A stretch of 64,000 bases of DNA from a virus (taxonomy: Duplodnaviria > Caudoviricetes), in the IMG/VR virus record IMGVR_UViG_3300032030_000024, positions 1 through 64,000 of that record, one strand, 5' to 3'. Position numbers and translations under genes: made by a program. The notes under the pieces were generated by a model. It made no database searches. It worked only from the letters and a program-made list of their open reading frames with translations, and had not been told where the DNA came from. Positions 3,494 to 41,460 of the stretch are shown here, piece by piece. Position 1 is the stretch's first letter, and each line of letters opens with the position of its first letter.

Positions 3494-3964
3494 TCAAACC
3501 GTCTGCTGCCAGCCCTGCGCGTTAGTGTAAAGAACCCTGCCGAGATGGAACATCAGGTAAGTACCGTCGCACGTTATATCCGTCAGCGCAACGGTGGCCG
3601 TCAGCGCATTCTTGCCCCTGCCCACGTACAGCACAAGCGCGTCGTAAGGCCGCAGGTAGCGCTTGCCGTCCTCCTCATAGCTACACTTGTTCACGTAGTA
3701 TTGATTCCCCCAATCCCTATACTCTATCTTCTTCGTACCAGCAAGGATGGCATCGAGGTACACCTTGTGGATGGAGAGCATCAGCGTCTTCATGCCCGTG
3801 GTCTTGGGCTTCAGCGGCTCCTTTAATGCAATCGTTTGCACAGGCCTTGGAAGCACGGCGCTCAGTTCCTGCTTCGTGATAATACGCAACAGCCTTTCAG
3901 CCTTGGCATCGTAGTTCAGGCTCGCATCGTTCACAATGGCTTGTATTTCCTGCTGTAATGTCAT
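3494..3964 (-). CDS. ASCH-domain protein
   Basis: LSIHKVYLDAILAGTKKIEYR ASCH motif. Confidence 0.75.
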   Translation of the reverse strand: MTLQQEIQAIVNDASLNYDAKAERLLRIITKQELSAVLPRPVQTIALKEPLKPKTTGMKTLMLSIHKVYLDAILAGTKKIEYRDWGNQYYVNKCSYEEDGKRYLRPYDALVLYVGRGKNALTATVALTDITCDGTYLMFHLGRVLYTNAQGWQQTV

Positions 3965-4177: not shown

Positions 4178-4185
4178 TATCTTTG
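4178..4185 (+). promoter_or_regulatory. -7 promoter element upstream of scaffold A, array A and dCas12f
   Basis: TATCTTTG matches the Bacteroidota TAnnTTTG consensus, about 50 nt upstream of scaffold A. Confidence 0.65.
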
Positions 4186-4235
4186 CATCATATTACGAAA
4201 ACGAGCATGACGAATGAAACAAGCAACAATATTTC

Positions 4236-4287
4236 GGGCGGGCTGTACCGCCTTAACGTAAGGGCATCAGCCACTTATGAAGTACCT
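4236..4287 (+). ncRNA. tracr/omega-like scaffold A
   Basis: GGGCGG-GCTGTA-CCGCCT hairpin (loop complementary to repeat end TACAGC); CGTAAG/CTTATG hairpin; GTACCT complementary to repeat AGGTAC; abuts repeat A1. Confidence 0.75.
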
Positions 4288-4446
4288 CCTGTAAAGGGTC
4301 TGAATATTCAAGGTACATACAGCTACTTTATCATTTCAGATTCTCCTGTAAAGGGTCTGAATATTCAAGGTACATACAGCGCTGGAGCAGTTGCCTGAGA
4401 AACTGGTGCGCCTGTAAATGGTATGAATATTCAAGGTACATACAGC
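4288..4446 (+). CRISPR. CRISPR array A (3 x 36-bp repeats)
   Basis: CCTGTAAAGGGTCTGAATATTCAAGGTACATACAGC at 4288 and 4345, variant at 4411; spacers 21 and 30 bp. Confidence 0.8.
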
Positions 4447-4485
4447 GGCAGCCGTTATACAAAAAAATACAAAAACGGTAACAAT

Positions 4486-5637
4486 ATGGTAATAACAAGA
4501 AAAATTGAGGTCTTCGTTTGTGAGGACGACAAAGACCTTCGTAGGGCATACTACGATAAGCTCTATGCCAACAGAGACATAGCCGTGAAAGTGGCAAACA
4601 TGGCAATGAGCCACCTCTTTGCCCTTGACAACACCATGCCATACCTTTCGGCTGAAGACAAGGAGCTGATAGAGTTCCTTGGCGTGAGGGGCAACAAGGC
4701 CACGAAGCAGAACGCACCATACGTTGCCGCGAGCGAAGCATTCAAGGGTAAGGCCGACATGGGCACAATTTCCTGTGTGCTACAGAACGCGCAGAAGATG
4801 TACGCGGATGACCGCAAGCGCGGCATGTGGGACAGGTCGTTGCGCTCCTACAAGCAGAACATGCCAGTGCCGTTCAAGGCCGGCAGATTCCTGAACCTCC
4901 GCTTTGCTGAGTACACCAACGGCGAGGGTGAGAAGCGCGAAGGCTGCTTCTTCACACTGATGGGCGTACCCTTCCAGATGCGCTTCGGGCGTGACCGCAG
5001 CGGCAACAGGCTCATCGTAGAACGCGTGATTAGCGGAGAGTACAAGATGTGCACATCATCGCTCAAGTTCGACGGCAAGAAGGTCTTCCTGCTGCTCTGC
5101 ATGGATATTCCCAAGAAGGAGGTGAAGCTCGACGAGAAAAAGACTATGTATGCCTACCTTGGCGTGATGAATCCTATTATCTGCACCTGTGACGTGAGGG
5201 CAGCAAAGGAGTATGACAGCGGGTATAAGTGGTGGGAGATTGGCACGAAGGAGGAGTTCAACTACCGCCGCCGCCAGATTCAGGAGGCCGTGCACCGCTG
5301 CCAGATAAACAACCGCTATTCCGAGGGCGGCAAGGGGCGCAAGCGCAAGTGTCAGGCTATTAAGCGCTGGCACGAGAAGGAGAAAAACTACGTTGACACC
5401 AAGCTCCACACCTATAGCCGTATGCTCGTCGACCTTGCCGTGAATCACGGATGCGGCAAGATAGTGCTGCTCAACCAGACGACACGTGAGGACAAGGCAA
5501 AAGAGGACAACCAGAACGGTGAGCCCTTTGTGCTGCGTAACTGGAGCTACTACGGATTGAAGGACAAGATTTCCTACAAGTGCAAGATGGTGGGCATAAA
5601 GATGATAGTTGACAAGGATAAAGAGAATGAAGAATAA
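4486..5637 (+). CDS. cas12f: Cas12f-like protein, predicted nuclease-dead (383 aa)
   Basis: C-half resembles AsCas12f1 (GGKGRKRK..HTYSRMLVDLAVNHGCGKI..LRNWSYYGLKDKISYK); RuvC-I GIDLG reads YAYLG, RuvC-II MEDL reads LLNQ; the protein ends before the Zn finger/RuvC-III; the ORF-track start at 4423 lies inside repeat A3. Confidence 0.85.
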   Translation: MVITRKIEVFVCEDDKDLRRAYYDKLYANRDIAVKVANMAMSHLFALDNTMPYLSAEDKELIEFLGVRGNKATKQNAPYVAASEAFKGKADMGTISCVLQNAQKMYADDRKRGMWDRSLRSYKQNMPVPFKAGRFLNLRFAEYTNGEGEKREGCFFTLMGVPFQMRFGRDRSGNRLIVERVISGEYKMCTSSLKFDGKKVFLLLCMDIPKKEVKLDEKKTMYAYLGVMNPIICTCDVRAAKEYDSGYKWWEIGTKEEFNYRRRQIQEAVHRCQINNRYSEGGKGRKRKCQAIKRWHEKEKNYVDTKLHTYSRMLVDLAVNHGCGKIVLLNQTTREDKAKEDNQNGEPFVLRNWSYYGLKDKISYKCKMVGIKMIVDKDKENEE

Positions 5638-5648
5638 GACAAAATACC

Positions 5649-5699
5649 GGGTACGCTGTAGTGCCTTATGCGGAGGTTTGACCACTCCGTAAGTTGCCT
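5649..5699 (+). ncRNA. tracr/omega-like scaffold B
   Basis: GGGTAC-GCTGTA-GTGCCT hairpin; GCGGAG/CTCCGT hairpin; GTTGCCT complementary to repeat AGGCAAC. Confidence 0.75.
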
Positions 5700-5723
5700 T
5701 TCCGTTTGACTTCTAAAGAGTTA

Positions 5724-5862
5724 GGTGTAACACATCCGAAAAAGTAGGCAACATACAGCAAAACCAAGAACGTATTAAATTGAGCAATAGGTGTGACACA
5801 TCCGAAAAAGTAGGCAACATACAGCCGTAAGCATAAACAGACCATTACGGCAATCGGTGTAA
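5724..5862 (+). CRISPR. CRISPR array B (2 full 36-bp repeats plus a truncated third)
   Basis: GGTGT(A/G)ACACATCCGAAAAAGTAGGCAACATACAGC at 5724 and 5790; two 30-bp spacers; GGTGTAA remnant at 5856. Confidence 0.75.
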
Positions 5863-5907
5863 TAAGCAACGTACATTCCATGTAGATTCAGACAAATAAA
5901 AACTATT

Positions 5908-6186
5908 ATGAACAGATTCGCATTAGACACAAAAGTTAGCGGCATGGCCTTGGACGAGTACATGGCAAAGCTGATTGAAAAAAACGAAAAACAGGATATA
6001 GATATTGAGCGCGGAAAGCTCACCGTGAGCATACTGAAGCAAATGAACAACCGTTCCCGACTCCTTATTGATGCCGCGAAGTTTGAACTAAAAAGTCGCG
6101 ACTTCGTGAGAGAGGCGGTTGCCGCTCTTGAAACTGCCTCCCCTAAAGAAACGGAAAAAGAACATAAAGACAAAGATGCAGCATAG
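5908..6186 (+). CDS. small helical phage protein between arrays B and C
   Basis: 92-aa ORF; IERGK..ILKQM..RLLIDAAKF resembles a widespread uncharacterised phage family. Confidence 0.7.
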   Translation: MNRFALDTKVSGMALDEYMAKLIEKNEKQDIDIERGKLTVSILKQMNNRSRLLIDAAKFELKSRDFVREAVAALETASPKETEKEHKDKDAA

Positions 6187-6202
6187 CAATGTGCTTCCCA
6201 AC

Positions 6203-6254
6203 GGGGCGGCTGTACGCCCTTGTCGTAAGGCTGACAAGCACTTATGAACTATCT
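6203..6254 (+). ncRNA. tracr/omega-like scaffold C
   Basis: GGGGCG-GCTGTA-CGCCCT hairpin; CGTAAG/CTTATG hairpin; CTATCT pairs with repeat AGGTAG (one G-U); same length as scaffold A; abuts repeat C1. Confidence 0.75.
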
Positions 6255-6620
6255 GTTGTATGAGCATACAAAATGAAAGGTAGATACAGCTGAAAAACAG
6301 GAATCCTAAATTTTCGTGAGGTTGTATGAGCATACAAAATGAAAGGTAGATACAGCTGCAAGGGATGCGAGAACAGGAAGATACGTGTTGTATGAGCATA
6401 CAAAATGAAAGGTAGATACAGCTTCCATTGGTGGGTAATATCCTGCTTGCGCGTTGTATGAGCATACAAAATGAAAGGTAGATACAGCAAACGCAGCACC
6501 AAGTCTTGTGCACCCCAAGTTGTATGAGCATACAAAATGAAAGGTAGATACAGCACCGAAAAATAAGTACCTGATTTCATTATAATTGTATGAGCATACA
6601 AAATGAAAGGTAGATACAGC
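6255..6620 (+). CRISPR. CRISPR array C (6 x 36-bp repeats, 5 x 30-bp spacers)
   Basis: GTTGTATGAGCATACAAAATGAAAGGTAGATACAGC at 6255, 6321, 6387, 6453, 6519 and 6585 (last starts with A); unique 30-bp spacers. Confidence 0.97.
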
Positions 6621-6703
6621 GAAGTGCAACATTGTGCTGAAGAAATTGGTGACGTTACGTCAATGTAAATATATAATTGCCCGTGAGGGTAGACCTCTCT
6701 TGC

Positions 6704-9091
6704 CTATAGAAAATCCGAAAGTATCTGCGAGTCGGATGCTCCACCGATAAGGCTCCCACGCTCCACAATTCCCGTTAGGCAGTCGCAGTTTGATACAAGT
6801 ATTCCGTTTGCATAAAAACAACCGACATCTTCAACGGTGATATTATACACGTCCTTTAGGGTGGAGGTTTTTGTATGTTGTGCTACATGAATGGGAACAG
6901 AATTTGCGGTCTGGGCGACTTGGTTTCGCCTTTCCGTATTTAAATTCTTTTCCACATTGTATGCAAACTGCTGTGTATGTAGGTTGGTGATAATAGTACA
7001 TTTCGCAGCACTTGTCGCTACAGAAGCTTGCATCCGTGTAGACAGATAAGAAACCACGTCCACAATACCTGCAAATACTGACCTTTTTCTTTTTTTTGCA
7101 ATGTGCGTGTACTTTATGCCATGCTCTCCCCTCTTCACTTCTGTGCCATTCCGTTGCAGCAGCACATCTTTCGTATTGATGCACAGCCATCTTCTCGCGG
7201 TATTCAGGATCTTGCCACCTCTTCTTGCCATGTTCCGATAAGTGTTGCTTAATCGGTAAACACTCCAAATTGCTGATGTCGTTATTAAAAGTATTGCCGT
7301 CCTTGTGATGAATGCAGCAGTCTTTAGGTACTTCCCGTCCATTATAAAACTCCCACACAGCGACATGCAGGCTCTTAGCACCTTTTCGTCCTTCGTTGCT
7401 CTTTGACTGACTGAGATAATACCTTCCCTTCCCCATAAGACGGTATTCGATTCCGTTGAAAGTAATAATCTGTTTAACCTCCATTTCATCTGCTCTTTAA
7501 ATCCGTACAAAGATAAAGCTTTTTCATCACACTTGCAAATTTCTTTAAACTCTTTAGCATTGAAAACACGATGTCCTTCTGTGGCAGTCAAACCAAAACG
7601 TTTTATAACATTTTTATGGCCTGTTTTCCCACTTGCAAGTACTTTTCGCAAGCCAAAAGGAGTAATAACATAATCTCCAACCTTGACATTTTCTATGTTC
7701 TTGTTACCCCATAAAGTAGCGACTTTAGTACCTGCTACAAAACAATGGTCGTCGTGAGCATTGTTTCCCTCCTTTCGGTAGGACTTCACTCCGCTGGCAA
7801 ACTCCGGCCACCTGCGTTCCCAATTCGACGGAAAGATTATCATGTTGTTCACCTCTGCCGACCGTTGGAAGATGCGTACCTGCTTGTTCTTCGTCTGCGT
7901 AAAAGGCAAGAAGGTGGTCTTTGCGTTGCCATACTCACGGCACAGCCTTTCCACGTTCCTTCCAAACGTCCTGCCACCGTTGTTGCTCTCGATGGCACAG
8001 TAGCGCACCTCGTCCTTCGACAGCATCTGCGCTTCTGCCTGTTCCGTGTATTCCATCGACTTCTTCGTAAACAAAATATCAATGATATAATAGCCGTCCT
8101 TCATGGCGAGGTAGTCGATGGAACAGAGGTAATCAGCTCCCGTGTCTGCCGTGTCGGTATAGTTGCAGACCACTCCAAGGCGTTTGTTCGGCAGTATGTC
8201 GTAGGTCTTGAACGGGTGCTCGTACATCAGGCCTTCCATCGGGGTCGGGTTTTGCATGTACTGAGTCTCAAAGACAAAGCTGTTGGCGTTGTTTATCTTG
8301 TCAAGTTCCTCTACGGTGAACTTGTACGGCCACAAGGACTGTCGCTCACCGTTCTTATCTACAGATATGGCTGGCAGGGAAATCACCCTCCAATCGTCTG
8401 GCTCCACCTCCTGCAAATAGCCGCAAAGGTCATGCTCATGCAATCGCTGCATGATGATGACAATAGGCGTGTTGCGGGAATTGACACGGTTACGGATGGT
8501 TGTCTCAAAGCGGCGGTTCACGCGCTCACGCACCACGTCCGACAGGGCATCCTCTGGCTTGATGGGGTCGTCGATGACAATAGCACCGCTGAAACGGTAC
8601 GGTTCCCCCTCTTTTTCGACGAGACCTGCACCGAAGCCTGTAATCTGGCCGAGCGTAGAAGTGGCGTAAAGCCCGCCTCCCTGGTCGGTGTCCCACTGGC
8701 TCTTCATGTTCTTTCCGTATGTGATGCGGGTGGGGTAGAGTGACCTATAAGCCTCAGACTGCACTATCTGCTTAACGGCGATAGAGTTGTCCTGTGCGAG
8801 GTTTGCAGAGTAGGAAAGGTGGATGAAACGGGAAGCAGGATTGACCGCCAAGCCCATAGCGATGAAGTTCTTGACGGCAATCTCTGTTTTGCCCGACCTC
8901 GGAAAAATGTTGATGATGAGCTTGTTGCACTTGCCGTTGAGCACGTCATCGAGCGCATCACAGATGAGCTTATGGTGTCCACCTATGATGAACTTCATGT
9001 CGTGCCCTTCCTTGAAGAAGTAGCGTGTGAAGTTGAGCGAGCTTTTCAGCGTCCACGCCCGCAGGATGTCGGTGTCGTACAGTTCAGCCAT
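6704..9091 (-). CDS. terL: terminase large subunit, intein-containing
   Basis: Walker A PRSGKT, IVIDDP, IMQRLHE, YMQNP, IESNNGG; the joined extein reads HDDH-CDCLTG. Confidence 0.93.
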   Translation of the reverse strand: MAELYDTDILRAWTLKSSLNFTRYFFKEGHDMKFIIGGHHKLICDALDDVLNGKCNKLIINIFPRSGKTEIAVKNFIAMGLAVNPASRFIHLSYSANLAQDNSIAVKQIVQSEAYRSLYPTRITYGKNMKSQWDTDQGGGLYATSTLGQITGFGAGLVEKEGEPYRFSGAIVIDDPIKPEDALSDVVRERVNRRFETTIRNRVNSRNTPIVIIMQRLHEHDLCGYLQEVEPDDWRVISLPAISVDKNGERQSLWPYKFTVEELDKINNANSFVFETQYMQNPTPMEGLMYEHPFKTYDILPNKRLGVVCNYTDTADTGADYLCSIDYLAMKDGYYIIDILFTKKSMEYTEQAEAQMLSKDEVRYCAIESNNGGRTFGRNVERLCREYGNAKTTFLPFTQTKNKQVRIFQRSAEVNNMIIFPSNWERRWPEFASGVKSYRKEGNNAHDDHCFVAGTKVATLWGNKNIENVKVGDYVITPFGLRKVLASGKTGHKNVIKRFGLTATEGHRVFNAKEFKEICKCDEKALSLYGFKEQMKWRLNRLLLSTESNTVLWGREGIISVSQRATKDEKVLRACMSLCGSFIMDGKYLKTAAFITRTAILLITTSAIWSVYRLSNTYRNMARRGGKILNTARRWLCINTKDVLLQRNGTEVKRGEHGIKYTHIAKKRKRSVFAGIVDVVSYLSTRMQASVATSAAKCTIITNLHTQQFAYNVEKNLNTERRNQVAQTANSVPIHVAQHTKTSTLKDVYNITVEDVGCFYANGILVSNCDCLTGIVERGSLIGGASDSQILSDFL
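6788..7744 (-). mobile_element. intein in TerL (319 aa)
   Basis: starts CFVAGTKV, ends VYNITVED..FYANGILVSN followed by C. Confidence 0.9.
6843..7484 (-). CDS. HNH homing endonuclease in an alternative frame inside the TerL intein
   Basis: LHVAVWE..IHHKDGNTFNNDISNLECL HNH motif plus CxxC zinc ribbons; frame differs from terL. Confidence 0.85.
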   Translation of the reverse strand: MEVKQIITFNGIEYRLMGKGRYYLSQSKSNEGRKGAKSLHVAVWEFYNGREVPKDCCIHHKDGNTFNNDISNLECLPIKQHLSEHGKKRWQDPEYREKMAVHQYERCAAATEWHRSEEGRAWHKVHAHCKKKKKVSICRYCGRGFLSVYTDASFCSDKCCEMYYYHQPTYTAVCIQCGKEFKYGKAKPSRPDRKFCSHSCSTTYKNLHPKGRV

Positions 9092-9481: not shown

Positions 9482-10003
9482 CTAATACTCCTCCTCAATC
9501 TTCTTCAACACTTGCTTCGCCTCTTCGGGTGTCATGGATGTTGGTGCGCCAAGACTACCACCGTTGGTTGTCACGTCCACTTCCTTCTTCACCGCTCCGA
9601 ACTGGCGGTCACGCAGCAAGTCCACGACCTTCGTGCGACCGTTCTTCATATCCATGATGGCGGCACGGGTAAGGGTGGTGAGGTACGCGGGCGAAGCGTC
9701 CGACGATCCGAGCTTGTTCAGCTCCTTGACACCAAGGGCAAGGACAAGGTTCTCGATGTAATCAACCTCGTCTATGCTCAACCCGTCAATCTCAGCGGCC
9801 TTCTTTGCCCCAAGGACGCTTTTAAGGAGTTCGGGAATCCTGTTCTTGCCCTTGGCTCCCTTCGGCCTCCCTGCGGGGTTGCCGCTCTGTCCTGGCTTGA
9901 AGCAGTGCGGGCGCAGGTCACGTTCATACTGTTCCCTGCCTTCCTCACTCAGCTGTCTGGTTCGCGCCGCTCTTGACCTTCTCTCTTTTCTTTCGTTTGC
10001 CAT
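9482..10003 (-). CDS. terminase small subunit-like protein
   Basis: FKPGQSGNPAGRPKG motif and C-terminal DVTTNG; upstream of terL. Confidence 0.75.
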   Translation of the reverse strand: MANERKERRSRAARTRQLSEEGREQYERDLRPHCFKPGQSGNPAGRPKGAKGKNRIPELLKSVLGAKKAAEIDGLSIDEVDYIENLVLALGVKELNKLGSSDASPAYLTTLTRAAIMDMKNGRTKVVDLLRDRQFGAVKKEVDVTTNGGSLGAPTSMTPEEAKQVLKKIEEEY

Positions 10004-10029
10004 AACTCATATATTTTAGTTTAACACAT

Positions 10030-10746
10030 TTATTCAAACATTTTCAGAAGTTCCTCACCCTTTGCAAACTTCGCGTCGGGTGCGATGCCCATCATGTCGC
10101 AGAAGGCTACGAAGTTGTCGTAGCTGGAAAACGACAGCGTTATGTGCGCCGCATCGTTCAGGGCATCGCGCTGCGCTATTTCCCGCGTCTTTGCCTTCCC
10201 CTCCTTCACCTTTGCCTTGTTCGCCTCGTACTCCTCAGAGCCTTTCTCTGGCACGGCCTTGGTGGGTTTCAGCATTTCACCGAAAAGGTCTGGCGTTTCC
10301 TCGCTGCCTCCCGTGGCGATATTCAGGATGTCGTCTATCTCGCTCTGGTCAAGACCTATCTCGCCAAGGTCTATCTCGTCGGCGAAGTTGGCAAGGAGGT
10401 CAAGGTTGTACGAAGTGTCGCCTGCCGCCATGTACGCCAGCTGCTGTTTCTCTTCCTGCTCGTTCATGTGTACCACCTCCACCTTCACCTCGTAGTCCGT
10501 CTCTGGAGTGCCGTCGTAGCCGTAGTACAAATCCATTGCAGATATTCTGCGATGGCCGTCAATAAGGTTTCCCGAAGTCTCGTTCCACACTATGCCACCG
10601 AGATAGCCAACCTTTTTCAGGTTTTTCTCTTGTGTTTTTATCCTGTCCTCACGGTGAATTTTTGGGTTGAGAGGGTTTTTCCGAATATCAGAACGCTTTA
10701 TTATTCGCGTCTCTGACGTTGTCAGCTGCTTCACCTTCTTTGCCAT
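10030..10746 (-). CDS. ParB/Srx-like protein
   Basis: NP..IVWNETSGNLIDGHRR. Confidence 0.8.
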   Translation of the reverse strand: MAKKVKQLTTSETRIIKRSDIRKNPLNPKIHREDRIKTQEKNLKKVGYLGGIVWNETSGNLIDGHRRISAMDLYYGYDGTPETDYEVKVEVVHMNEQEEKQQLAYMAAGDTSYNLDLLANFADEIDLGEIGLDQSEIDDILNIATGGSEETPDLFGEMLKPTKAVPEKGSEEYEANKAKVKEGKAKTREIAQRDALNDAAHITLSFSSYDNFVAFCDMMGIAPDAKFAKGEELLKMFE

Positions 10747-10837
10747 ATTCTCCTGCTTTAAAGTTCGTTACTCATATTATTTTGCTAAATCTCTTTAAAT
10801 TACGCGCCCATGACTTGCACGTCTCAAACAAATTGCT

Positions 10838-10960
10838 TATCTTTGTATCGTCATTGAAGCCGATATGACGCTAAACATCATCGGACAGGCACAGGGCTTC
10901 CGCTCATAGCGGCAAGTTGTGTAACCGAATCCAAACCTCGCTTCGGCGGGGTTTGATGCT
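10838..10960 (+). ncRNA. candidate pseudoknot sRNA, copy 1, convergent with nuclease gene
   Basis: TATCTTTG promoter, GTCAT/ATGAC stem, loop CCGAT pairs with ATCGG, second hairpin, TTCG-loop terminator. Confidence 0.6.
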
Positions 10961-10961
10961 T

Positions 10962-11522
10962 TTAATACGTCCGCACTTCACCAGACCTCTTGATGTAGTA
11001 ACCGTGATAGCCTTTCTCCGACAGCTCGTGAATCTTGTCACGGAACTTACGCCATTTCCCGTCCAACATGAACACCGTCATTTCGGCTCCCTGCTTCGTG
11101 GTGGCTTTCTCGGCGTGGGAGAGCATATACTTGGTACTCGTGCACCATTTCAGGTCGGCTGGCCTTCCGTCAATGGTGATGTCGTAGGTCTCGCCCTTCT
11201 TATCGTCCTGCCTCAGTACCACGTTGTGGCCGTCCTTCGCCAAGGCTCTCGACATGGTCTTCTCCTTGCGGTACACCTCCATGTTCTCCTTGCTCGCCAG
11301 CCCCTCGTTAGTCCTTTCCGCAAGTATGGTGAGAGACCCGCCGCCTTTGAAGGTTTCGTGGGTGTTTATGATGTCGCTTGCCTTCAGCTCCGGCAGTAGC
11401 CTGCTGCTTCGCTTTCCGCTGCGCTTGGCGGGAGAAGTTGGCAGCGGGCGCGGCAACGATTCTCTCACCGCGTTCAAGGCTCTCACGCCCCCTTCCCGTG
11501 CCACTGCTACCTCCTGTGCCAT
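10962..11522 (-). CDS. leader-bearing protein with CdiA-like (PD-D/ExK) nuclease domain
   Basis: leader MAQEVAVAREGGVRALNAV; C-terminal YDITIDGRPADLK..KQGAEMTVF. Confidence 0.7.
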   Translation of the reverse strand: MAQEVAVAREGGVRALNAVRESLPRPLPTSPAKRSGKRSSRLLPELKASDIINTHETFKGGGSLTILAERTNEGLASKENMEVYRKEKTMSRALAKDGHNVVLRQDDKKGETYDITIDGRPADLKWCTSTKYMLSHAEKATTKQGAEMTVFMLDGKWRKFRDKIHELSEKGYHGYYIKRSGEVRTY

Positions 11523-11528
11523 TGCTTA

Positions 11529-13784
11529 CTACTCAGCCCAAGCGTCCAACGTTTCCCTGTCGTAAATCTCCATTATACTTTTTTGAGACCCATCAGGCTC
11601 AATACGGAACACATCAGCATAGTTGTGCTTATGCTTTATGTAACGAGCCAATATTACAGAAACATAGTGAGGGGCAAGTTCAATCATACGGCATGTTCTA
11701 CCCAACTGTTCCGCAGCTATCAACGTAGTGCCAGAACCACCGAATCCATCAAACACAACATCACCCTTTTTTGAACTATTTTTCATCAGATAACCTACTA
11801 ACCCTACAGGTTTTTTCGTAGGGTGGTCCAAGGATTTTGTCGGTCTTTCCCAATCAATTACAGTTGACTGCTTGCGGTCAGAGTACCAGTTATGACCTGC
11901 ACCTTCCTTCCATCCGTAAAGGCAATTGTGGGTAATTATTCCGTCAGAAATATAGTGGTTGTGCTTTTCTACAGCAAGAGAATAAACCATACCTTCAAAC
12001 GGCTCAAATGTAACCGCATCAATTGATTTCCAATGAAAATTAGGAGCAGTTACACTATCACCAGTTGGAATAGGAATCTGCATTAACTCAGGAACAAGGT
12101 TACATGCATTTACTTTTGCCGTTACTCGTGTACTGAAACGCTCGTGAATGTTCTTTCTGTCAATAAGTGGGAATCTCTCTGAACGTCCAAAGTCGTGAAG
12201 TAGGCGATGAGCATTCTCCTGCATCGTTGCAAGGTCAAGGGAGCTGTAAATATTTGAAATTTGCTCTTCATTCCTTATCTTTGTATAGTCAGGATGTTTT
12301 AAACCACGCTGTACCTCCCAATGTGTATATGGAATCCCGTATTTTACTGCAAGTATCTGTTCACCTACCTGCGCATCCAAAGTGTTGTCGTATAAGTCAA
12401 GCAGCCACGCTTCATCAGCCTTTTCTTGATTAAATCGGCTTTTGAGTCCAAACTGACGAGCGTCATAGGCAACAGTATGACCTACACGCCACCAGTCGCC
12501 ACGTCTCATGATATAGGTGCAATAGCGTTTTCGGTTTTTTCCGTTAAATCTAATGCTGAACTCATGGTTATCAGTAGCGCGAGTTGTCTTTCCGTCAACG
12601 GTAACGGAATACATCAAACCGTTGTATTTCCGACTTGCAGTTTCTATGGCATAGCCACCATTACGATAGCCTTTTACTTGCCCACTGAAAGTATCAAATG
12701 TGATTACTCGGTCTTTGTTTGTCAACGCCTCAATGGGTTTAAGACCTTCCGTAGTTTGCACCATCGTACCTGCTGGTTGGCAAGGCTCATGTTTCCATTG
12801 GTAATCTTGCCTGCCCATAACGAACGAGTTTTTGTTCCATATCAGTGTCTGACGTAGTGTCATATCCCCTGCGTTCATAAGCGCAAGCCTAAAATAGTAG
12901 CTATTACTGTCAGAATGGAAAATATAATAAGTCCCACCTGGTTGCAATATTTGTTTTGCTTCTGTAAAAGCTTTTACAAGGAATTCAAGAAATCCTTCAC
13001 CAGAGAGATTGTCGTTTAGTACGAGTAAACCATCACCCTTTTCAGCACGCATACTGCCGTCAAAACCATAGTTTACCGCATAAGGAGGATCGGTCAGCCA
13101 TATGTGAGCCTGTTCTCCATTCGGAAAAAGACGTTGAACATCCTCCTGTTTTGTTGAGTCACCACAAAGCAGCAAATGCCTTCCGAGTTTCCACATCTGC
13201 CCCTCCTTGATAATCTCATCCGTCTCTATATCGTTCTGCTCGAAATCATCATCCTCCGTCACAGAACTCTCTTCCATTGGTGACACCCCTGGAGCAACGA
13301 GCGAGCCTTCCGCACCGCTGCCTTCTGCACCGCCTATAGAGCCACCGTTAGCCACATCATCCTCCAATGCCTGTCCGAGGTCGGGAAGGTCTATGGCGGC
13401 AAGTTCTATCTCGTCCATCGACCACTCGTTGAGCAGCAGCTCGAAGTCCGTCTCGCCGAAGCTGGAGTTGTCCTTCAGCACTATGCGGCGCAGCTTCTCG
13501 ATGGGGAATCCCGTATGCAGCACCTTGCAGGGCACTTCCTTGTAGCCGAGCTCCTTCATGGCACGGTAGCGCATATTGCCGCCAGCCACGACGTAGCCGA
13601 GGTCTGGGTTGCCCGTGTCATATACTATCAGCTCTCGCAGTTCGAGCATCTCAGGGTCATCCTTGATGCTCTGTACCAGTTTCTTGTACTTCTCGTCGCG
13701 TATGAAGCGCGGGTTCTTCGGCAGTCCCTTCACCTGTCCGATGTTGGGGAATACCTGTGTGATTGGCAGTTGTTCTGTGTTCAT
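11529..13784 (-). CDS. ParB-fused N6/N4 DNA methyltransferase, intein-containing
   Basis: ParB-like N-terminus (GGNMRY), TDPPY, HPTKKP, DGFGGSGTT. Confidence 0.9.
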   Translation of the reverse strand: MNTEQLPITQVFPNIGQVKGLPKNPRFIRDEKYKKLVQSIKDDPEMLELRELIVYDTGNPDLGYVVAGGNMRYRAMKELGYKEVPCKVLHTGFPIEKLRRIVLKDNSSFGETDFELLLNEWSMDEIELAAIDLPDLGQALEDDVANGGSIGGAEGSGAEGSLVAPGVSPMEESSVTEDDDFEQNDIETDEIIKEGQMWKLGRHLLLCGDSTKQEDVQRLFPNGEQAHIWLTDPPYAVNYGFDGSMRAEKGDGLLVLNDNLSGEGFLEFLVKAFTEAKQILQPGGTYYIFHSDSNSYYFRLALMNAGDMTLRQTLIWNKNSFVMGRQDYQWKHEPCQPAGTMVQTTEGLKPIEALTNKDRVITFDTFSGQVKGYRNGGYAIETASRKYNGLMYSVTVDGKTTRATDNHEFSIRFNGKNRKRYCTYIMRRGDWWRVGHTVAYDARQFGLKSRFNQEKADEAWLLDLYDNTLDAQVGEQILAVKYGIPYTHWEVQRGLKHPDYTKIRNEEQISNIYSSLDLATMQENAHRLLHDFGRSERFPLIDRKNIHERFSTRVTAKVNACNLVPELMQIPIPTGDSVTAPNFHWKSIDAVTFEPFEGMVYSLAVEKHNHYISDGIITHNCLYGWKEGAGHNWYSDRKQSTVIDWERPTKSLDHPTKKPVGLVGYLMKNSSKKGDVVFDGFGGSGTTLIAAEQLGRTCRMIELAPHYVSVILARYIKHKHNYADVFRIEPDGSQKSIMEIYDRETLDAWAE
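11925..12782 (-). mobile_element. intein in DNA methyltransferase (286 aa)
   Basis: starts CQPAGTMV, ends VYSLAVEKHNHYISDGIITHN followed by C. Confidence 0.9.
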
Positions 13785-27479: not shown

Positions 27480-28358
27480 TTAACTCATGATTGCGGCAAG
27501 CGCGTCAATCTCCGCCTCGGTCATGGGCTTCTGCTCGTCGCCCTGTCCCTGCTGCTCTCCTGCACCGGGCTTGCCTAACTTATCAAGTCCTTGGTTGGCA
27601 CGTTCCTGGTTCATGGCCTTGATGTCCTCCTGCACCCCGCTGACGAACTCGTTGAAGTCCTCGTCGGAGTCGAAAGTCATCTTGGCATAGTTCTTCTTGA
27701 TGCGCTCACCGTACACGCCCGAACCCTCAAGGATGGTGGCCAGCTGCTTCTCGCGGTTCTCCTTCACCTTCTCGGTCTTCATGGCGATGAACTCGTTACG
27801 GAAAGCCTCGAACTCCTCCTGCTGCTTCTTGGCGGCTTCCTGCTGCTTCTTCATGGCAGCGGTCTGCTCCTTCAGCTGCTGTGTGAGCTTCTCGTTCTCC
27901 TGCTTCAAGCCCTTTGCCCAATCCGATTCGAGAAGCTTCTGGAATCCTGCTTCCTCAGCAGCCTTGCGAGCTGCCTCCTCAGCGGCCTTGCGCTCTTCCT
28001 CGGCTTTCTTGGCAGCTTCCTCCTCCTCTGCCTTGCGTTTTGCCTCGGCCTCTTCCGCAGCTTTTCGTGCGGCTTCCTCCTCGGCCTTGCGCTTGGCTTC
28101 TGCCTCGGCCTCCTGGCGCTTCTCCTCCTGCTTCTGGATAATGCGGTTAGCGTGACTCTGCGCGAGCTCAAGGTGGAATATTGCCGCGTCCACTTCCTTC
28201 GTGGCCGCTGCCGTCATTGCCTCGTCCGTTGCATCGTCCTCTACATTGAGGTTGTCAGCAATCTTCGTTGCGACACCCTCCAGCTCCTCCTTCGTGAACC
28301 CGAGACTCTTGGCCTTCGGTTTCAGAAGTTCCAGTACCAACTTGGTTTTCTTGTTCAT
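27480..28358 (-). CDS. capsid scaffolding protein
   Basis: K/E/A-rich coiled coil at the head of the capsid operon. Confidence 0.7.
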   Translation of the reverse strand: MNKKTKLVLELLKPKAKSLGFTKEELEGVATKIADNLNVEDDATDEAMTAAATKEVDAAIFHLELAQSHANRIIQKQEEKRQEAEAEAKRKAEEEAARKAAEEAEAKRKAEEEEAAKKAEEERKAAEEAARKAAEEAGFQKLLESDWAKGLKQENEKLTQQLKEQTAAMKKQQEAAKKQQEEFEAFRNEFIAMKTEKVKENREKQLATILEGSGVYGERIKKNYAKMTFDSDEDFNEFVSGVQEDIKAMNQERANQGLDKLGKPGAGEQQGQGDEQKPMTEAEIDALAAIMS

Positions 28359-28617
28359 AACTCTTATGTTTGATTAATAAATATTAAGCAGCGGCAAATT
28401 TATCGAAAAGTATTTATCTAACAAACGTTTTAACAAATATTATGTGAATTTTTAAGTTAAAAATATGCCATATATGCGCAAAAGCGGCTTTTTAGTTGCA
28501 TATATGGCAATTATCTGCTGATTGTTGGTACAAAGGTACAAAAACAACAAAGGGACGACAACCACATACGGTTATCGTCCCTAAAAACGGAATTACCCTT
28601 AGTGCGGCCTTTTACGG
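28342..28617. repeat. ~275-bp duplicated terminator-promoter-start unit, copy 1
   Basis: near-identical to 35049-35323. Confidence 0.9.
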
Positions 28618-28618
28618 T

Positions 28619-28945
28619 CTATTCTTCTGGCGGGTTGTCCTCCGGGTCAAGGAGGAAGAAGCCGCCGTCTCGTGTGCGCAACGGGCCGTCTGAGGTGGAT
28701 AATACGGTCAGTTCGCCTCCGCTTACGCTGCACACCTCGCCCACAGACAGCTCCAGCTGCCGTACCGGACTGACGGCAAGCGTCGCCTGTCTGTCAGGCT
28801 CTCCAGCCACCGTCGCCTGTGCCTTCCCGCTCACTTCCAGCGACGCCTGTGCCGAGGCTGTCACCGAGAGGGTTGCTGCGGCGAAGGTGCCGACGGTCAG
28901 GCTGGCCAGCGATACCGGGGTGATGGTAAACAATAGACAAGCCAT
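28619..28945 (-). CDS. hypothetical structural protein
   Basis: Thr/Ala/Val-rich, C-terminal LRTRDGGFF. Confidence 0.55.
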   Translation of the reverse strand: MACLLFTITPVSLASLTVGTFAAATLSVTASAQASLEVSGKAQATVAGEPDRQATLAVSPVRQLELSVGEVCSVSGGELTVLSTSDGPLRTRDGGFFLLDPEDNPPEE

Positions 28946-35048: not shown

Positions 35049-35323
35049 TTGGTTTTCTTGCCATAACTCTTATGTTTGATGAATAAATATTAATCAGCGG
35101 CAAATTTATCGAAAAGTATTTATCCAACAAACGTTTTAACAAATATTATGTGAATTTTTTAAGTTAAAAATATGACATATATGCGCAAAAGCGGCTTTTT
35201 AGTTGCATATATGGCAATTATCTGCTGATTGCTGGTGCAAGGGTACAAAAACAAGAAAAGGGGCGGCAACCACATCGGTTATCGCCCCTAAAACGAAATT
35301 ACCCTTAGTGCGGCCTTTTACGG
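35049..35323. repeat. ~275-bp duplicated unit, copy 2
   Basis: near-identical to 28342-28617. Confidence 0.9.
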
Positions 35324-35407
35324 CCTTTTCTTTTGCGGGGGTGACACAGTTGCCAACCCAGTATATTTTGTGCGCCCTACGGCCTTTTCTGTGCGTCGTG
35401 CGGCCGT

Positions 35408-36870: not shown

Positions 36871-37101
36871 CTACCTCCTTTCCAGTTGTCCTATCTTCCT
36901 GTTCAGTACGTTCATCCGTGAGCTGTATTCTGCCTCGGATAACTCACCACGGGCATACATCTGCATCACCCCGGCCTTCTGCTGACGGTACAGGTCGAGA
37001 TAGTCACTCACCGTGTGGCCGCTTGCACGTGCCTTGTCGCTGCGCATGGCGTTCAACGGGCTAACGCTCGATTCCCTTGCCACAGTGCTTTCTTTTGCCA
37101 T
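36871..37101 (-). CDS. leader-family protein
   Basis: MAKESTVARESSVSPLNAM. Confidence 0.75.
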   Translation of the reverse strand: MAKESTVARESSVSPLNAMRSDKARASGHTVSDYLDLYRQQKAGVMQMYARGELSEAEYSSRMNVLNRKIGQLERR

Positions 37102-37102
37102 A

Positions 37103-37705
37103 TTAACCTCCTATTTTTTTGATTATTCGTTTTATTCTTTCCTTAAATGCCTTGTCATCGCGATTCACCCTTGCCTCGGCATAGTCTATCTTCTGACCTT
37201 TGTGGTCAACGCGATAGACGTGCTTTTCCATATCTCGGTTCACCTGCGAGCGGATGGACTCAAACTGCGTCGGGTTGTCCCGAAAACGCTCCGCCACCTT
37301 CTTTCCTTTCGGTGTGTTTCTAATGTCACCCCATTTTCTGTCAAGTGCCTCGGCTACGTTGCGAAGCTTGGTGCTTCCGTAGTAGTCGTTGATATCATCC
37401 TCACCACCCTTGTTGAACCACCCGTCAGGGTCAAGTCCGAAGAACGGATACCATTTACCGCTTTCCACGCTGTACTTCCTTCCTTGGCCAGTCGAGAGGT
37501 AGAATGGCATATCCACACCATTGATGTTGACGATGACTATCTTTCTGTCAGCGAGGTCTATCATGCCTTGATACACACCATCTATTTTCATCTTGTGAAA
37601 GTGTGTTCCCTCTGGCAGACCATCGGATTTTATCCTGGGTGCAGTGCCCATTGCATTCAATGGGCTGACACTTCCCTCTCGCACTGCTACTACTTCTGCA
37701 CTCAT
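37103..37705 (-). CDS. leader-family protein
   Basis: MSAEVVAVREGSVSPLNAM; globular C-terminus with PFYLSTG..KWYPFFG. Confidence 0.75.
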   Translation of the reverse strand: MSAEVVAVREGSVSPLNAMGTAPRIKSDGLPEGTHFHKMKIDGVYQGMIDLADRKIVIVNINGVDMPFYLSTGQGRKYSVESGKWYPFFGLDPDGWFNKGGEDDINDYYGSTKLRNVAEALDRKWGDIRNTPKGKKVAERFRDNPTQFESIRSQVNRDMEKHVYRVDHKGQKIDYAEARVNRDDKAFKERIKRIIKKIGG

Positions 37706-37708
37706 AGC

Positions 37709-38338
37709 TTACCCTTTCTTCTTAGTATATTTCCAACCAAGCTCATCAGCCACAAGTTTGTTTATCTTGTGAAAGAATGTCACTGCATAGCGGTTATAGG
37801 CCGTCTGCGAGCCTCGCATGAGGTCGTAGTACGTCTGTCCGTTCACCGTCACCTCGTCAGCCGCCTTTTTGTACGCCCTGCGGACAGCCGCCTGCGTCAC
37901 GCCCCACTTGTCACCGTTCCGCTTGATGGAGAAGGTATAGGTTGGAGTGACGGCACGTATCTCCTTCGCATTGAACTTCACTGCAAGCACGGCATCCTCC
38001 GCAGAGAAGGAGTTGCCGATGCGCATATAGCCGCGTTCCGAGAGCGCCGACGGGTGGTTGTGCGTCATGATGAGGTTCTCGCCCGGCACGTCACTGTCGC
38101 GGAGTGACACGCGGTCGCGCTTCCCCTGCTTGCGGTTGAGCTGGTTGCCTGCATCGTCGTAGAAGGCCATCGCCTCGTTCTCCTCCTGCCGCTGGCGGTT
38201 CTCGTAGGAGAGGATGGCACGTTTCAGCGAAGCGGAATAGCCGTTCTCCGTCACCCCGCCTACCGTCCTCACGTCACCGCGCACGGCGTTGCCAGCGTTT
38301 GCCGTGGAGTGCTCCCTTGCCGATGTTACCTCTTTCAT
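37709..38338 (-). CDS. leader-family protein with JAB/MPN-like domain
   Basis: MKEVTSAREHSTANAGNAV; E..THNHPS..FSAED. Confidence 0.75.
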   Translation of the reverse strand: MKEVTSAREHSTANAGNAVRGDVRTVGGVTENGYSASLKRAILSYENRQRQEENEAMAFYDDAGNQLNRKQGKRDRVSLRDSDVPGENLIMTHNHPSALSERGYMRIGNSFSAEDAVLAVKFNAKEIRAVTPTYTFSIKRNGDKWGVTQAAVRRAYKKAADEVTVNGQTYYDLMRGSQTAYNRYAVTFFHKINKLVADELGWKYTKKKG

Positions 38339-38344
38339 ACCTTA

Positions 38345-38692: not shown

Positions 38693-38703
38693 ACTACCAA
38701 CAT

Positions 38704-38973: not shown

Positions 38974-38979
38974 AGCCCT

Positions 38980-39408: not shown

Positions 39409-39412
39409 AACA

Positions 39413-39724: not shown

Positions 39725-39729
39725 AGTAC

Positions 39730-39993: not shown

Positions 39994-40017
39994 AGAAAAT
40001 ATTTTTAAAGTTCTTTA

Positions 40018-40851: not shown

Positions 40852-40966
40852 TATCTTTGCAGTGTCATTGATGCCGATATGACTTTAATACAATCGGACA
40901 AGGCTGTGTTACGCTTCGGGCGGCTCGGACTACCCTCGCCTCGGACTTCGGTTCGGGGCGTTGATA
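40852..40966 (+). ncRNA. candidate pseudoknot sRNA, copy 2, convergent with nuclease gene
   Basis: TATCTTTG, GTCATTGATGCCGATATGAC..ATCGGACA, TTCG-loop terminator. Confidence 0.6.
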
Positions 40967-40968
40967 TT

Positions 40969-41460
40969 TTAGAAAGTCTTCAACTTTAATTCGTCCGTCA
41001 AGAAGTAGTAGCCGTGAATACCTCTTTTTGTAAGCTTTTCCACCTCTGTTTTCATTCTCTCATTCCATTTATCAAACTGAAACACTACTAAGTCTGCGCC
41101 TTGCCTGCCTATGGCATCATCCGCATGACGTTTTATGTTGTTATGGCTACCAAGCCTTTTTAAGTCTGCAAGGACACCATTTATCCTTATATCCGGCGAT
41201 GGTATGCCGGGAATCTCATTCAGATGCTCAACGGTAAAACCTTGTGAAGCGAGGAATTTAGCCATCTGCTGCTCCTTCCTGTACTTATAGTATTCGGTCT
41301 TATTTGTCTGCCCGAAATTATACCTACGTTCATCAGTAAGGAGTTGACCGCCATTTTCGTAATAGACAACAGGTGTATATACGTTTGAGCGATTGGCTAC
41401 ACCCATGACGTTCTGTGGCACCCAATCTTCTTCCTTGTATATATACGTTTCTCTTGCCAT
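40969..41460 (-). CDS. divergent leader-family protein with CdiA-like nuclease domain
   Basis: MARETYIYKEE..PQNV; SPDIRINGVLADLK..RQGADLVVF; paralog of 10962-11522. Confidence 0.7.
   Translation of the reverse strand: MARETYIYKEEDWVPQNVMGVANRSNVYTPVVYYENGGQLLTDERRYNFGQTNKTEYYKYRKEQQMAKFLASQGFTVEHLNEIPGIPSPDIRINGVLADLKRLGSHNNIKRHADDAIGRQGADLVVFQFDKWNERMKTEVEKLTKRGIHGYYFLTDELKLKTF

What the first reader, a model, noticed from the sequence alone, without database searches (positions are those of the whole stretch)
10838..11522. CdiA-like nuclease paired with a convergent pseudoknot RNA (copy 1): candidate RNA antitoxin
Seen: just past the nuclease stop codon, the opposite strand has a TATCTTTG promoter followed by GTCAT-TGAAGCCGAT-ATGAC. 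The loop CCGAT can pair with ATCGG (10880-10884), giving an H-type pseudoknot, followed by a hairpin and a terminator. No protein immunity gene is evident. The same element sits beside the paralogous nuclease 30 kb away and nowhere else that I saw. Known: type III antitoxins (ToxI) are pseudoknots that inhibit RNases. Inference: a new nuclease-RNA toxin/antitoxin or decoy-substrate pair.
Basis: partly seen in the sequence, partly recalled or inferred. Interest (0 to 1): 0.8.

Follow-up and report, generated by a model that had tools for sequence, protein, structure and literature searches.

The report
Phage nuclease toxin with partner RNA
A rumen phage carries two copies of a toxin-like nuclease gene, each followed tail-to-tail by a small folded RNA gene instead of the usual protein "immunity" gene, and the same pairing recurs in dozens of Bacteroidales phages, so an RNA probably keeps this toxin family in check.

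Summary
The promoter box, pseudoknot, hairpin and terminator lie at the stated coordinates. A second copy sits at 40852-40971, and the 124-kb phage record holds no others.

The ORF (186 aa) is a PD-(D/E)xK domain. Its closest solved fold is the tRNase CdiA-CT of B. pseudomallei 1026b (Z 11.4). The domain family has at least 285 clusters, mostly at the C-terminus of MuF-type phage proteins.

In 46 of 54 distinct loci a TAnnTTTG promoter and a 60-165 nt RNA lie on the opposite strand, and the terminator U-tract touches the toxin stop codon. All share a core hairpin (5 of 7 pairs compensatory). A covariance model finds it only next to the toxin, and 700 kb of control DNA gave nothing.

The pseudoknot is real: S2 pairs in 14 of 14 sequences with two compensatory pairs, and S1 has seven sequence versions. 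It is an optional 5' module. No conserved protein immunity gene exists, Rfam has no match, and I found no paper.

RNA class follows the toxin tree, so toxin and RNA move as one cassette. Neutralisation is inferred, not shown. It is not a ToxIN-type system.

This scan noted the same pairing before on other DNA (e1-871039, e1-2163838, e1-5452112).

The parts
10815..10845 (+). Bacteroidetes-type promoter of RNA copy 1: TTG (10815-17), about 20 nt spacer, -7 box TATCTTTG (10838-45)
   Evidence: conserved between the two copies. A TAnnTTTG box lies at the same relative position in 51 of 54 related loci.
10849..10884 (+). H-type pseudoknot at the RNA 5' end. S1 is 10849-54 with 10865-70; L1 is UGAAG; S2 is 10860-64 with 10880-84; L3 is the A-rich 10871-79.
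   Evidence: S2 is 100% paired with 2 compensatory pairs, and S1 has 7 sequence versions.
10888..10926 (+). Core hairpin of the family: GG, 1x1 loop, 3 bp, 1x1 loop, long apical stem, then CC. This is the divergent 'D' version.
   Evidence: Fold. The family architecture comes from RNAalifold. Model R1 does not hit this copy; the assignment rests on architecture and on the shared pseudoknot.
10932..10963 (+). Intrinsic terminator (stem-loop 10932-55, U-tract 10960-63) that overlaps the nuclease stop codon by 2 nt
   Evidence: the same abutment is seen in 47 of 54 loci.
10962..11522 (-). 186-aa ORF. Residues 1-19 are a leader shared with about 11 other small ORFs of this phage, 20-57 a disordered linker, and 58-186 a PD-(D/E)xK CdiA-CT-like nuclease domain (E87, D114, D123-x-K125, Q144).
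   Evidence: (4g6v_A, Z 11.4).
40852..40971 (+). RNA copy 2: -7 box 40852-59; pseudoknot S1 40864-68 with 40879-83 and S2 40874-78 with 40893-97; core hairpin ('B' version); terminator 40937-60; U-tract ending in stop codon 40969-71
   Evidence: R1 hit at 40896-40970, 26.6 bits, E 3e-6.
40969..41460 (-). 163-aa paralogous nuclease ORF, 35% identical to copy 1, with a weak Pfam CdiA_C match

Best explanation
The nuclease ORF and the convergent RNA gene form one toxin-plus-RNA-immunity cassette.

The protein is a catalytically intact PD-(D/E)xK nuclease domain of the CdiA-CT(1026b) tRNase type. It is delivered as phage cargo. In this phage it sits behind a short shared N-terminal leader; in most relatives it is the C-terminal end of the head protein MuF.

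The RNA has its own constitutive-looking promoter and ends exactly at the toxin stop codon, so it is made as a discrete 60-165 nt molecule.

I propose that its conserved core hairpin binds the nuclease domain and blocks it in the producing cell. That would be type III-like decoy inhibition, taking the place of the protein immunity gene that normally follows such toxin domains. The hairpin consists of a GG/CC base, two fixed 1x1 internal loops and a single-stranded A-C-Y-C tail, a shape reminiscent of a tRNA acceptor-arm minihelix. The 5' pseudoknot is an accessory module that probably stabilises or folds the RNA.

Shown: the anatomy, the strand, the covariation, the exclusive linkage, the cassette co-inheritance and the intact catalytic residues.

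Inferred: toxicity, tRNA as the target, RNA-protein binding and neutralisation.
For: Fold: the AF2 model (pLDDT 81.5) best matches 4g6v_A, the CdiA-CT 1026b tRNase. Foldseek gives E 7e-4 and VIA-align gives Z 11.4 over 122 of 132 residues, with the next hit at 7.7.

Family: at least 285 clusters at 50% identity, mostly C-terminal domains. N-termini include MuF and Gln_amidase. R70, E87, D114, D/E123, K125 and Q144 are conserved in essentially all loci.

Linkage:
- 46 of 54 distinct loci have both a TAnnTTTG promoter and a terminator abutting the stop codon on the opposite strand.
- Model R1 gives 27 hits at E<1e-4 in 287 kb of toxin loci, all directly after the toxin stop. It gives none better than E 0.95 in 700 kb of control phage DNA.
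- In 151 Bacteroidales genomes the 3 strong hits are all next to the toxin domain.
- All 5 strong toxin hits among 401 genomes have the RNA.
- Pseudoknot-pattern hits in IMG/VR and metagenomes are real only beside the toxin.

Structure: 5 of 7 core pairs show compensatory changes, and the G.U pairs fit only the RNA strand.

Cassette behaviour: RNA class changes 7 times on the toxin-domain tree, against 23-28 in shuffles, while N-terminal architecture varies within clades. In L007 the copy-1 toxin+RNA block sits between PAPS reductase and LuxS, where the window has copy 2.

No conserved protein gene follows.

A terminator placed exactly at the ORF end argues that the RNA product matters, not antisense transcription through the ORF.

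In L100 an IS separates the toxin from the RNA by 1.2 kb, yet both are intact.

Published background: CdiA-CT 1026b cleaves the tRNA-Ala acceptor stem and is blocked at its active site by CdiI (PMC9086364). MuF toxins normally have downstream immunity proteins (PMC5576092, PMC11699363).
Against: - There is no experiment, and no test of RNA-protein binding is possible with these tools.
- Co-inheritance on a tree is expected for any adjacent pair.
- Any toxin transcript that continues past its stop codon is perfectly complementary to the RNA, so antisense action cannot be excluded.
- The tRNA-mimic idea is weak. Rfam's tRNA model does not match. The tail is A-C-Y-C, not CCA. The R1 cross-hits to tRNA 3' ends owe much to the terminator.
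- Copy 1 itself is not detected by R1.
- About 8 of 54 loci lack a clear RNA.
- The two pseudoknot/promoter segments in this phage may be homogenised by recombination.
Confidence: 0.4

Rival explanations
1. Type I-like antisense control. The RNA pairs with the 3' untranslated or intergenic part of the toxin transcript, which must run through the RNA gene's complement. This triggers RNase III-type cleavage and decay, as with the convergent txpA/RatA, bsrG/SR4 or par RNAI/RNAII pairs. The conserved folds would then serve RNA stability and fast pairing.
For: The layout is convergent with zero spacing. No sense-strand terminator is visible after the toxin ORF. A sheep-gut metatranscriptome contig runs uninterrupted across the RNA gene and the whole toxin ORF (10801-11518), so some transcript spans both. 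An earlier scan note on other DNA reached the same comparison (e1-871039).
Against: The RNA never overlaps the ORF or the ribosome-binding site. In MuF fusions, repressing the mRNA would also remove an essential head protein. A cis-antisense RNA has no need for a core hairpin with fixed internal loops kept across loci whose sequences have otherwise diverged. In L100 the RNA lies 1.2 kb away from an intact toxin gene. Contigs give no strand.
Confidence: 0.25
2. The RNA is not an antitoxin. It is a cofactor, substrate or regulator tied to the nuclease, for example an RNA loaded with the protein into the capsid, a specificity or activating RNA, or a sensor-controlled antisense promoter that sets when the cargo gene is expressed. 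The nuclease would be a counter-defence effector rather than a self-harming toxin.
For: The strict linkage and conserved structure fit any specific RNA-protein partnership. Phage-packaged 'polyvalent' proteins with nuclease domains have been proposed as counter-defence cargo (PMC5512222, title and abstract seen). The pseudoknot-hairpin-terminator order resembles a riboswitch-type attenuator.
Against: The closest characterised relative is a growth-inhibiting tRNase that needs an immunity factor (PMC9086364). The RNA occupies exactly the slot where immunity genes sit in polymorphic toxin cassettes. Minimal family members are only core hairpin plus terminator, which leaves too little for a ligand sensor (L138, L115, L141).
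Confidence: 0.2
3. The conserved segment is mainly a structural genome feature: a cassette boundary or recombination handle plus a terminator that insulates the downstream operon, with no function for the RNA product.
For: In L007 the homology breakpoints fall at the leader and at the RNA promoter/pseudoknot. The two copies share the promoter and pseudoknot far better than the rest.
Against: Compensatory changes in three helices, the strand-specific G.U pairs, and a promoter at a fixed distance in 51 of 54 loci all point to a transcribed, folded RNA.
Confidence: 0.08

Closest known systems
CdiA-CT/CdiI of Burkholderia pseudomallei 1026b (PDB 4G6V; Pfam PF18451 CdiA_C; PD-(D/E)xK tRNase)
   Same: It is the best structural match (Z 11.4). 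There is a weak Pfam match in copy 2 and in relatives. Both have an acidic/lysine catalytic set and sit as a C-terminal toxin domain on variable delivery proteins.
   Different: Sequence identity is about 15-18%. The carrier is a phage, not a type V secretion protein. The neutralising partner there is the protein CdiI bound at the active site (PMC9086364). Here no protein gene follows; an RNA gene does. Substrate not tested.
MuF polymorphic toxins of temperate phages (Jamet et al. 2017, PMC5576092; Bxa, PMC11699363)
   Same: Most relatives of this domain are C-terminal extensions of MuF-like head proteins (ORF lengths). The 1026b-type domain (cd13442) is listed among MuF toxin domains in PMC5576092. 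Exchange is cassette-like.
   Different: The window's two copies are not fused to MuF; they sit behind a 19-residue shared leader. The published systems are followed by small immunity ORFs, whereas here the follower is a convergent RNA gene.
Type III toxin-antitoxin systems (ToxIN, CptIN, TenpIN)
   Same: The proposed logic is shared: a folded, partly pseudoknotted RNA that inhibits a nuclease protein directly. Both are linked to phages.
   Different: There are no tandem repeats. The RNA is downstream and convergent with its own promoter, not upstream in the same transcript. The toxin has a PD-(D/E)xK fold, not a ToxN/AbiQ fold. Nothing indicates that the toxin processes the RNA.
Type I toxin-antitoxin pairs with convergent 3'-overlapping RNAs (txpA/RatA, bsrG/SR4, par RNAI/RNAII; nuclease toxins SymE, RalR)
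   Same: A small RNA with its own promoter lies convergent to a toxin gene. Complementarity to the toxin transcript's 3' region is unavoidable.
   Different: The toxin is a 130-residue enzyme domain, often part of a 500-aa structural protein, not a small membrane peptide. The RNA does not overlap the ORF. Its structure is conserved beyond what antisense pairing needs.

Membership tests
Type III TA (ToxIN-like) | Antitoxin is an array of tandem RNA repeats | tested here: not met
   A single-copy element; no repeats at either locus.
Type III TA (ToxIN-like) | Antitoxin lies upstream of the toxin on the same strand, separated by a terminator | tested here: not met
   The RNA is downstream, on the opposite strand, with its own promoter.
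Type III TA (ToxIN-like) | Toxin has the ToxN/AbiQ/CptN endoribonuclease fold | tested here: not met
   The fold is PD-(D/E)xK; the best match is 4g6v_A.
Type III TA (ToxIN-like) | RNA binds and inhibits the toxin protein | not testable with these tools
   Needs co-expression, pull-down or a structure.
Type I TA | Antitoxin RNA base-pairs with the toxin mRNA | tested here: inconclusive
   There is no overlap with the ORF or RBS. Overlap with a read-through 3' region is likely: an RNA-library contig spans 10801-11518, strand unknown.
Type I TA | Toxin is a small, usually hydrophobic peptide | tested here: not met
   The toxin is a soluble nuclease domain of 163-186 aa, or up to about 800 aa in fusions.
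CdiA_C / CdiA-CT 1026b tRNase family (PF18451) | PD-(D/E)xK core fold like 4G6V chain A | tested here: met
   Z 11.4, 122 of 132 residues aligned, rmsd 3.2. Foldseek probability 1.00.
CdiA_C / CdiA-CT 1026b tRNase family (PF18451) | Pfam model match above the gathering score | tested here: not met
   Copy 1 has no hit. Copy 2 scores 24.2 bits against a cut-off of 26.6. Some relatives pass (P0008 32.2, P0014 29.4). This is a divergent sister group.
CdiA_C / CdiA-CT 1026b tRNase family (PF18451) | Conserved catalytic acidic residues and lysine | tested here: met
   E87, D114, D/E123 and K125, plus R70 and Q144, are kept in essentially all of about 60 loci.
CdiA_C / CdiA-CT 1026b tRNase family (PF18451) | tRNA cleavage activity | not testable with these tools
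   Biochemical assay needed.
CdiA_C / CdiA-CT 1026b tRNase family (PF18451) | Cognate CdiI-type protein immunity gene immediately downstream | tested here: not met
   The next same-strand gene differs between loci: ParB-like, LuxS, or a phage morphogenesis gene.
MuF polymorphic toxin | Toxin domain fused to an N-terminal MuF head-protein domain | tested here: not met
   The window ORFs are 186 and 163 aa with a leader only. Many relatives are fused, e.g. P0008 with PF04233.
Any Rfam family | Match at the gathering score | tested here: not met
   The only hit in the window is a tRNA. The local E-value search gave only sub-threshold, terminator-driven hits. L095 and L097 gave none.

The most novel reading that the evidence does not exclude
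A new class of toxin neutralisation: a small folded RNA, not a protein, serves as the immunity factor of a polymorphic-toxin nuclease domain. It would act by mimicking the toxin's tRNA acceptor-arm substrate. Toxin and RNA are exchanged together as one cassette among gut and rumen Bacteroidales phages.
Probability: 0.3. Interest if true: 0.9.

Novelty: new variant of a known kind. Interest (0 to 1): 0.78.

Why it matters
Polymorphic toxins (CDI, Rhs, T6SS effectors, MuF toxins) are thought to be neutralised by cognate immunity proteins. Known RNA antitoxins belong to two narrow classes: type I antisense RNAs and type III repeat RNAs.

Here a whole toxin-domain family of at least 285 clusters, spread through gut and rumen Bacteroidales phages, has a structured RNA gene in the immunity slot. 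If the RNA neutralises the nuclease, three things follow:
- RNA-based immunity extends to polymorphic toxins.
- There is a compact natural RNA inhibitor of a tRNase-type enzyme.
- Annotation pipelines see these toxins as lacking immunity for a clear reason.

The system is directly testable. Minimal versions are about 60 nt, and cultured strains carry the module: Bacteroides stercorirosoris DSM 26884 (L140/L148) and Prevotella sp. S7-1-8 (L145).

Tried and rejected
- Rfam gathering and E-value searches gave no family.
- The exact 20-nt pseudoknot pattern in IMG/VR gave 0 hits.
- A 16-nt core pattern gave 83 loci, all chance matches.
- A specific copy-1-type pattern in metagenome contigs gave 0 hits.
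- The search for related loci with the single protein found nothing. Alignment A4 was too diverse to seed a scan.
- A profile search of PDB sequences found nothing useful; only fold comparison found CdiA-CT.
- The sigma-70 promoter scan found none. This is expected for Bacteroidetes-type promoters.
- The idea that a phage tRNA-Ala gene goes with the toxin is not supported: the window has one, but 49 other loci showed no consistent tRNA.
- The tRNA-mimicry idea is not supported by Rfam's tRNA model. It rests only on shape and on R1 cross-hits.
- RNA-library contigs cannot give strand, ends or level. The lack of cover over 9536-10741 is not evidence.
- R1 does not detect copy 1.
- R1 hits of 22-27 bits in whole genomes were terminators or tRNA 3' ends, not family members.
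- Literature searches found no description of an RNA partner for this toxin.

Full report
**Where the window comes from.** The window is the first 64 kb of a 123.6-kb IMG/VR virus record. The DNA run that holds it whole is labelled sheep gut metagenome. Its genes are phage genes: a large terminase with an intein, a ParB-methylase with an intein, and DUF5681. Its promoters are of the Bacteroidetes TAnnTTTG type.

**The observation.**
- -7 box TATCTTTG at 10838-45.
- Stem GTCAT/ATGAC at 10850-54 and 10865-69, extendable to 6 bp.
- Loop CCGAT at 10860-64 and its partner ATCGG at 10880-84.
- A long hairpin at 10888-10926.
- A terminator at 10932-55. Its U-tract overlaps the stop codon (10962-64) of the minus-strand ORF 10962-11522 by two bases.

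A second copy lies at 40852-40971, next to the ORF 40969-41460. The whole phage record has exactly these two. The two proteins are 35% identical. The two RNAs share the promoter and pseudoknot almost letter for letter but differ downstream. The plus strand folds better than shuffles (z -3.3 and -1.9) and better than the minus strand.

**The protein.**
- Copy 1 has no Pfam hit. Copy 2 has a sub-threshold CdiA_C hit.
- An AlphaFold2 model (pLDDT 81.5; residues 1-31 disordered) matches CdiA-CT of B. pseudomallei 1026b. Foldseek gives E 7e-4 and VIA-align gives Z 11.4 over 122 of 132 residues. The next hit is a type IIS restriction enzyme at Z 7.7.
- According to PMC9086364, that toxin is a PD-(D/E)xK tRNase. 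It cuts the acceptor stem of tRNA-Ala and is blocked at its active site by the protein CdiI.
- An exhaustive profile search found 285 clusters at 50% identity, 202 of them at E<1e-10. In most, the domain is the C-terminal ~130 residues of proteins of 250-875 aa. Their N-termini include MuF and Gln_amidase. This is the phage polymorphic-toxin pattern of PMC5576092.
- R70, E87, D114, D/E123, K125 and Q144 are kept in essentially every locus examined, so the enzyme is under selection.
- In this phage the domain sits behind a 19-residue leader (MAxExxxAREsxxxxLNAV). About eleven otherwise unrelated small ORFs at 36871-44486 share that leader (first noted in e1-5768785).
- By analogy with capsid-targeting sequences of T4 internal proteins (my own knowledge, not tested), the leader may replace MuF as the packaging handle.

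**The RNA is linked to the nuclease everywhere.**
- Close homologues (P0001-6) on metagenome contigs L006, L007 and L009 carry the same RNA on the opposite strand, directly after the stop codon. The neighbouring genes differ.
- More distant homologues showed the same layout: L095, L097, 21 IMG/VR loci, 27 loci from Bacteroidales genomes, and 5 more from a 401-genome sample.
- Of 54 distinct loci with enough flank, 51 have a TAnnTTTG box 45-200 nt from the stop. 47 have a stable hairpin whose U-tract ends within 6 nt of the stop codon, usually inside it. 46 have both.
- No protein gene is conserved after the toxin. The next same-strand gene is ParB-like, LuxS, or a phage morphogenesis gene, depending on the locus.

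**A common core.** All the RNAs share one hairpin:
- It is preceded by Y-A.
- It opens with two G-C pairs (GG...CC), then a 1x1 internal loop, three variable pairs and a second 1x1 loop (often U.U).
- It continues into an apical stem-loop of variable length.
- It is followed by a single-stranded A-C-Y-C-U-U-A-like tail and then the terminator.

RNAalifold recovers this on 16 sequences. Five of seven pairs show compensatory changes, and many G.U pairs would be C.A on the other strand.

**Covariance model R1.**
- It gave 27 hits at E<1e-4 in 287 kb of toxin loci. All were antisense and immediately after the toxin stop, and many were sequences not in the seed. Window copy 2 scored 26.6 bits.
- In 700 kb of unrelated phage contigs the best hit was E 0.95.
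- In 151 Bacteroidales genomes the three strong hits (38 bits or more) all sit beside the toxin domain.
- Weaker hits were terminators, two tRNA 3' ends, and one orphan core-like hairpin (L151).
- Copy 1 is not detected by R1. Its apical stem is long and divergent, but it has the same GG / 1x1 / 3-bp / 1x1 layout and the same pseudoknot.

**The pseudoknot.**
- It is present in about a third of members: both window copies, L006/7/9, L095, L099-104, L111/112, L116, L120, L132, L133, L143, L280/290.
- It is combined with at least five different core classes, so it is a modular 5' add-on. It changes state 6 times on the toxin tree.
- S2 is paired in 14 of 14 sequences, with CG->UA in five and AU->GC in three. 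Sliding the partner gives at most 58% paired.
- S1 is a 4-8 bp helix with seven different sequences.
- L1 (UGAUG) and the A-rich L3 are conserved.
- Pattern scans of IMG/VR and of metagenome contigs returned about 200 chance matches. The only matches with an S1 helix of at least 5 bp beside the pattern (six of them also with a TAnnTTTG box) lay next to the toxin domain; one of them lay at a locus edge whose toxin is seen in L102.

**Cassette behaviour.**
- On a tree of 55 toxin domains the RNA core class changes 7 times, against 23-28 in label shuffles.
- Long (fusion) and short (stand-alone) architectures mix within clades.
- In the related phage fragment L007, the copy-1-type toxin+RNA block sits between PAPS reductase and LuxS. 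In the window that position holds TnpB, copy 2 and its RNA. The homology breakpoints fall just inside the leader and at the RNA promoter/pseudoknot.
- So toxin domain plus RNA move as one unit, as toxin/immunity pairs do. Co-inheritance of neighbours is expected in any case and does not prove co-evolution.

**Expression.** Two metatranscriptome libraries from one sheep-gut sample hold contigs covering 10801-11518 and 10870-11119. That is the RNA gene plus the toxin ORF. Contigs give neither strand nor ends, and both libraries come from one sample. I take this only as a sign that the region is transcribed and that some transcript spans both genes.

**Mechanism.** I favour a folded RNA that neutralises the nuclease domain by binding it (confidence 0.4), for these reasons:
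- The RNA occupies the immunity slot.
- It has its own promoter.
- It is terminated exactly at the ORF end, which points to a discrete product rather than antisense transcription through the gene.
- It keeps a hairpin with fixed internal loops across loci that have otherwise diverged. A cis-antisense RNA has no need for that.
- In MuF fusions, mRNA-level repression would also remove an essential head protein.
- In L100 an IS separates an intact toxin from an intact RNA by 1.2 kb.

The resemblance of the core (GG/CC-closed helix plus A-C-Y-C tail) to a tRNA acceptor arm, and the tRNase relative's acceptor-stem target, suggest substrate mimicry. This is conjecture, and Rfam's tRNA model does not match.

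The main rival is type I-like antisense action on the read-through 3' region (0.25). It cannot be excluded, because complementarity there is unavoidable. Other roles (cofactor, regulator, boundary element) remain possible.

**Comparison and novelty.**
- The system is not a type III system by any testable defining feature.
- It is not a classical type I system.
- It is not a CdiA/CdiI pair, because no protein immunity gene is present.
- The window copies are not MuF fusions.
- Rfam 15 has no family for the RNA. I found no paper describing an RNA partner for this toxin.
- Earlier notes of this same scan describe the same pairing on other DNA (e1-871039, e1-2163838, e1-5452112). Those are unchecked AI notes, not publications, and I reached the result here from this window's own relatives.
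- I class it as a new variant of known kinds: an RNA antitoxin, and a polymorphic toxin cassette. It has a fair chance of being a new class if direct inhibition is shown.

Noticed in passing
window 6255-6625: CRISPR-like array: six 36-nt repeats (GTTGTATGAGCATACAAAATGAAAGGTAGATACAGC) with 30-nt spacers, right beside the terminase gene of the phage. Earlier notes e1-5768773 and e1-5768774 describe a Cas12f-like ORF and further arrays at 4178-6650.
   Followed up: no
window 36871-44486 (minus strand) and 10962-11522: About 12 small, otherwise unrelated ORFs start with the same leader, MAxExxxAREsxxxPLNAV (DNA repeats D4). Both nuclease ORFs carry it. It may be a capsid-targeting or cargo signal that replaces MuF.
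   Followed up: partly
window 44933-45006 (-): The phage encodes tRNA-Ala(UGC). The closest solved relative of the nuclease cuts tRNA-Ala. No tRNA is consistently found near the toxin in 49 other loci, so the link is unproven.
   Followed up: partly
window 41464-42672 (-): A TnpB (OrfB_IS605 + Cas12f1-like TNB) gene sits 3 nt upstream of nuclease copy 2. It has its own TATCTTTG box at 42677-84. It is absent from the syntenic place in L007.
   Followed up: partly
window 6704-9091 and 11529-13784 (-): Intein/Hint domains interrupt both the large terminase and the ParB-N6/N4 DNA methylase.
   Followed up: no
window 40018-40512 (-): The phage encodes LuxS (S-ribosylhomocysteinase) next to the copy 2 cassette. 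It is also present in L007.
   Followed up: no
L100 2393-3811: An insertion of about 1.2 kb with a transposase-like ORF separates an intact MuF-toxin gene from its intact RNA. The R1 hit is at 3653-3716 and the pseudoknot at 3766-3811.
   Followed up: partly
L127 1854-2465: The toxin domain is broken into two reading frames, yet the RNA is intact (R1 48.7 bits at 2394-2465).
   Followed up: no
L151 1501-1565: An orphan core-type hairpin (GUGCC-GAAA-GGUUC version, 26.6 bits) sits in a Bacteroidales genome with no toxin domain within 1.5 kb and no clear promoter. It could be an orphan immunity RNA or a relic.
   Followed up: partly
L150, L153 (hits of model R1): The RNA model cross-hits the 3' end of tRNA genes followed by a terminator, at 25-27 bits. 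This fits a shape likeness between the core hairpin with its tail and a tRNA acceptor arm, or it may only reflect the terminator.
   Followed up: partly
window 28356-28637 and 35062-35343: A direct repeat of about 280 nt (85-94% identical) with copies 6.7 kb apart (families D5-D7).
   Followed up: no
L167, L168: A distant subgroup of the nuclease (E87 replaced by N) has a convergent TAnnTTTG box. It lacks the family's core hairpin and a clear terminator.
   Followed up: no
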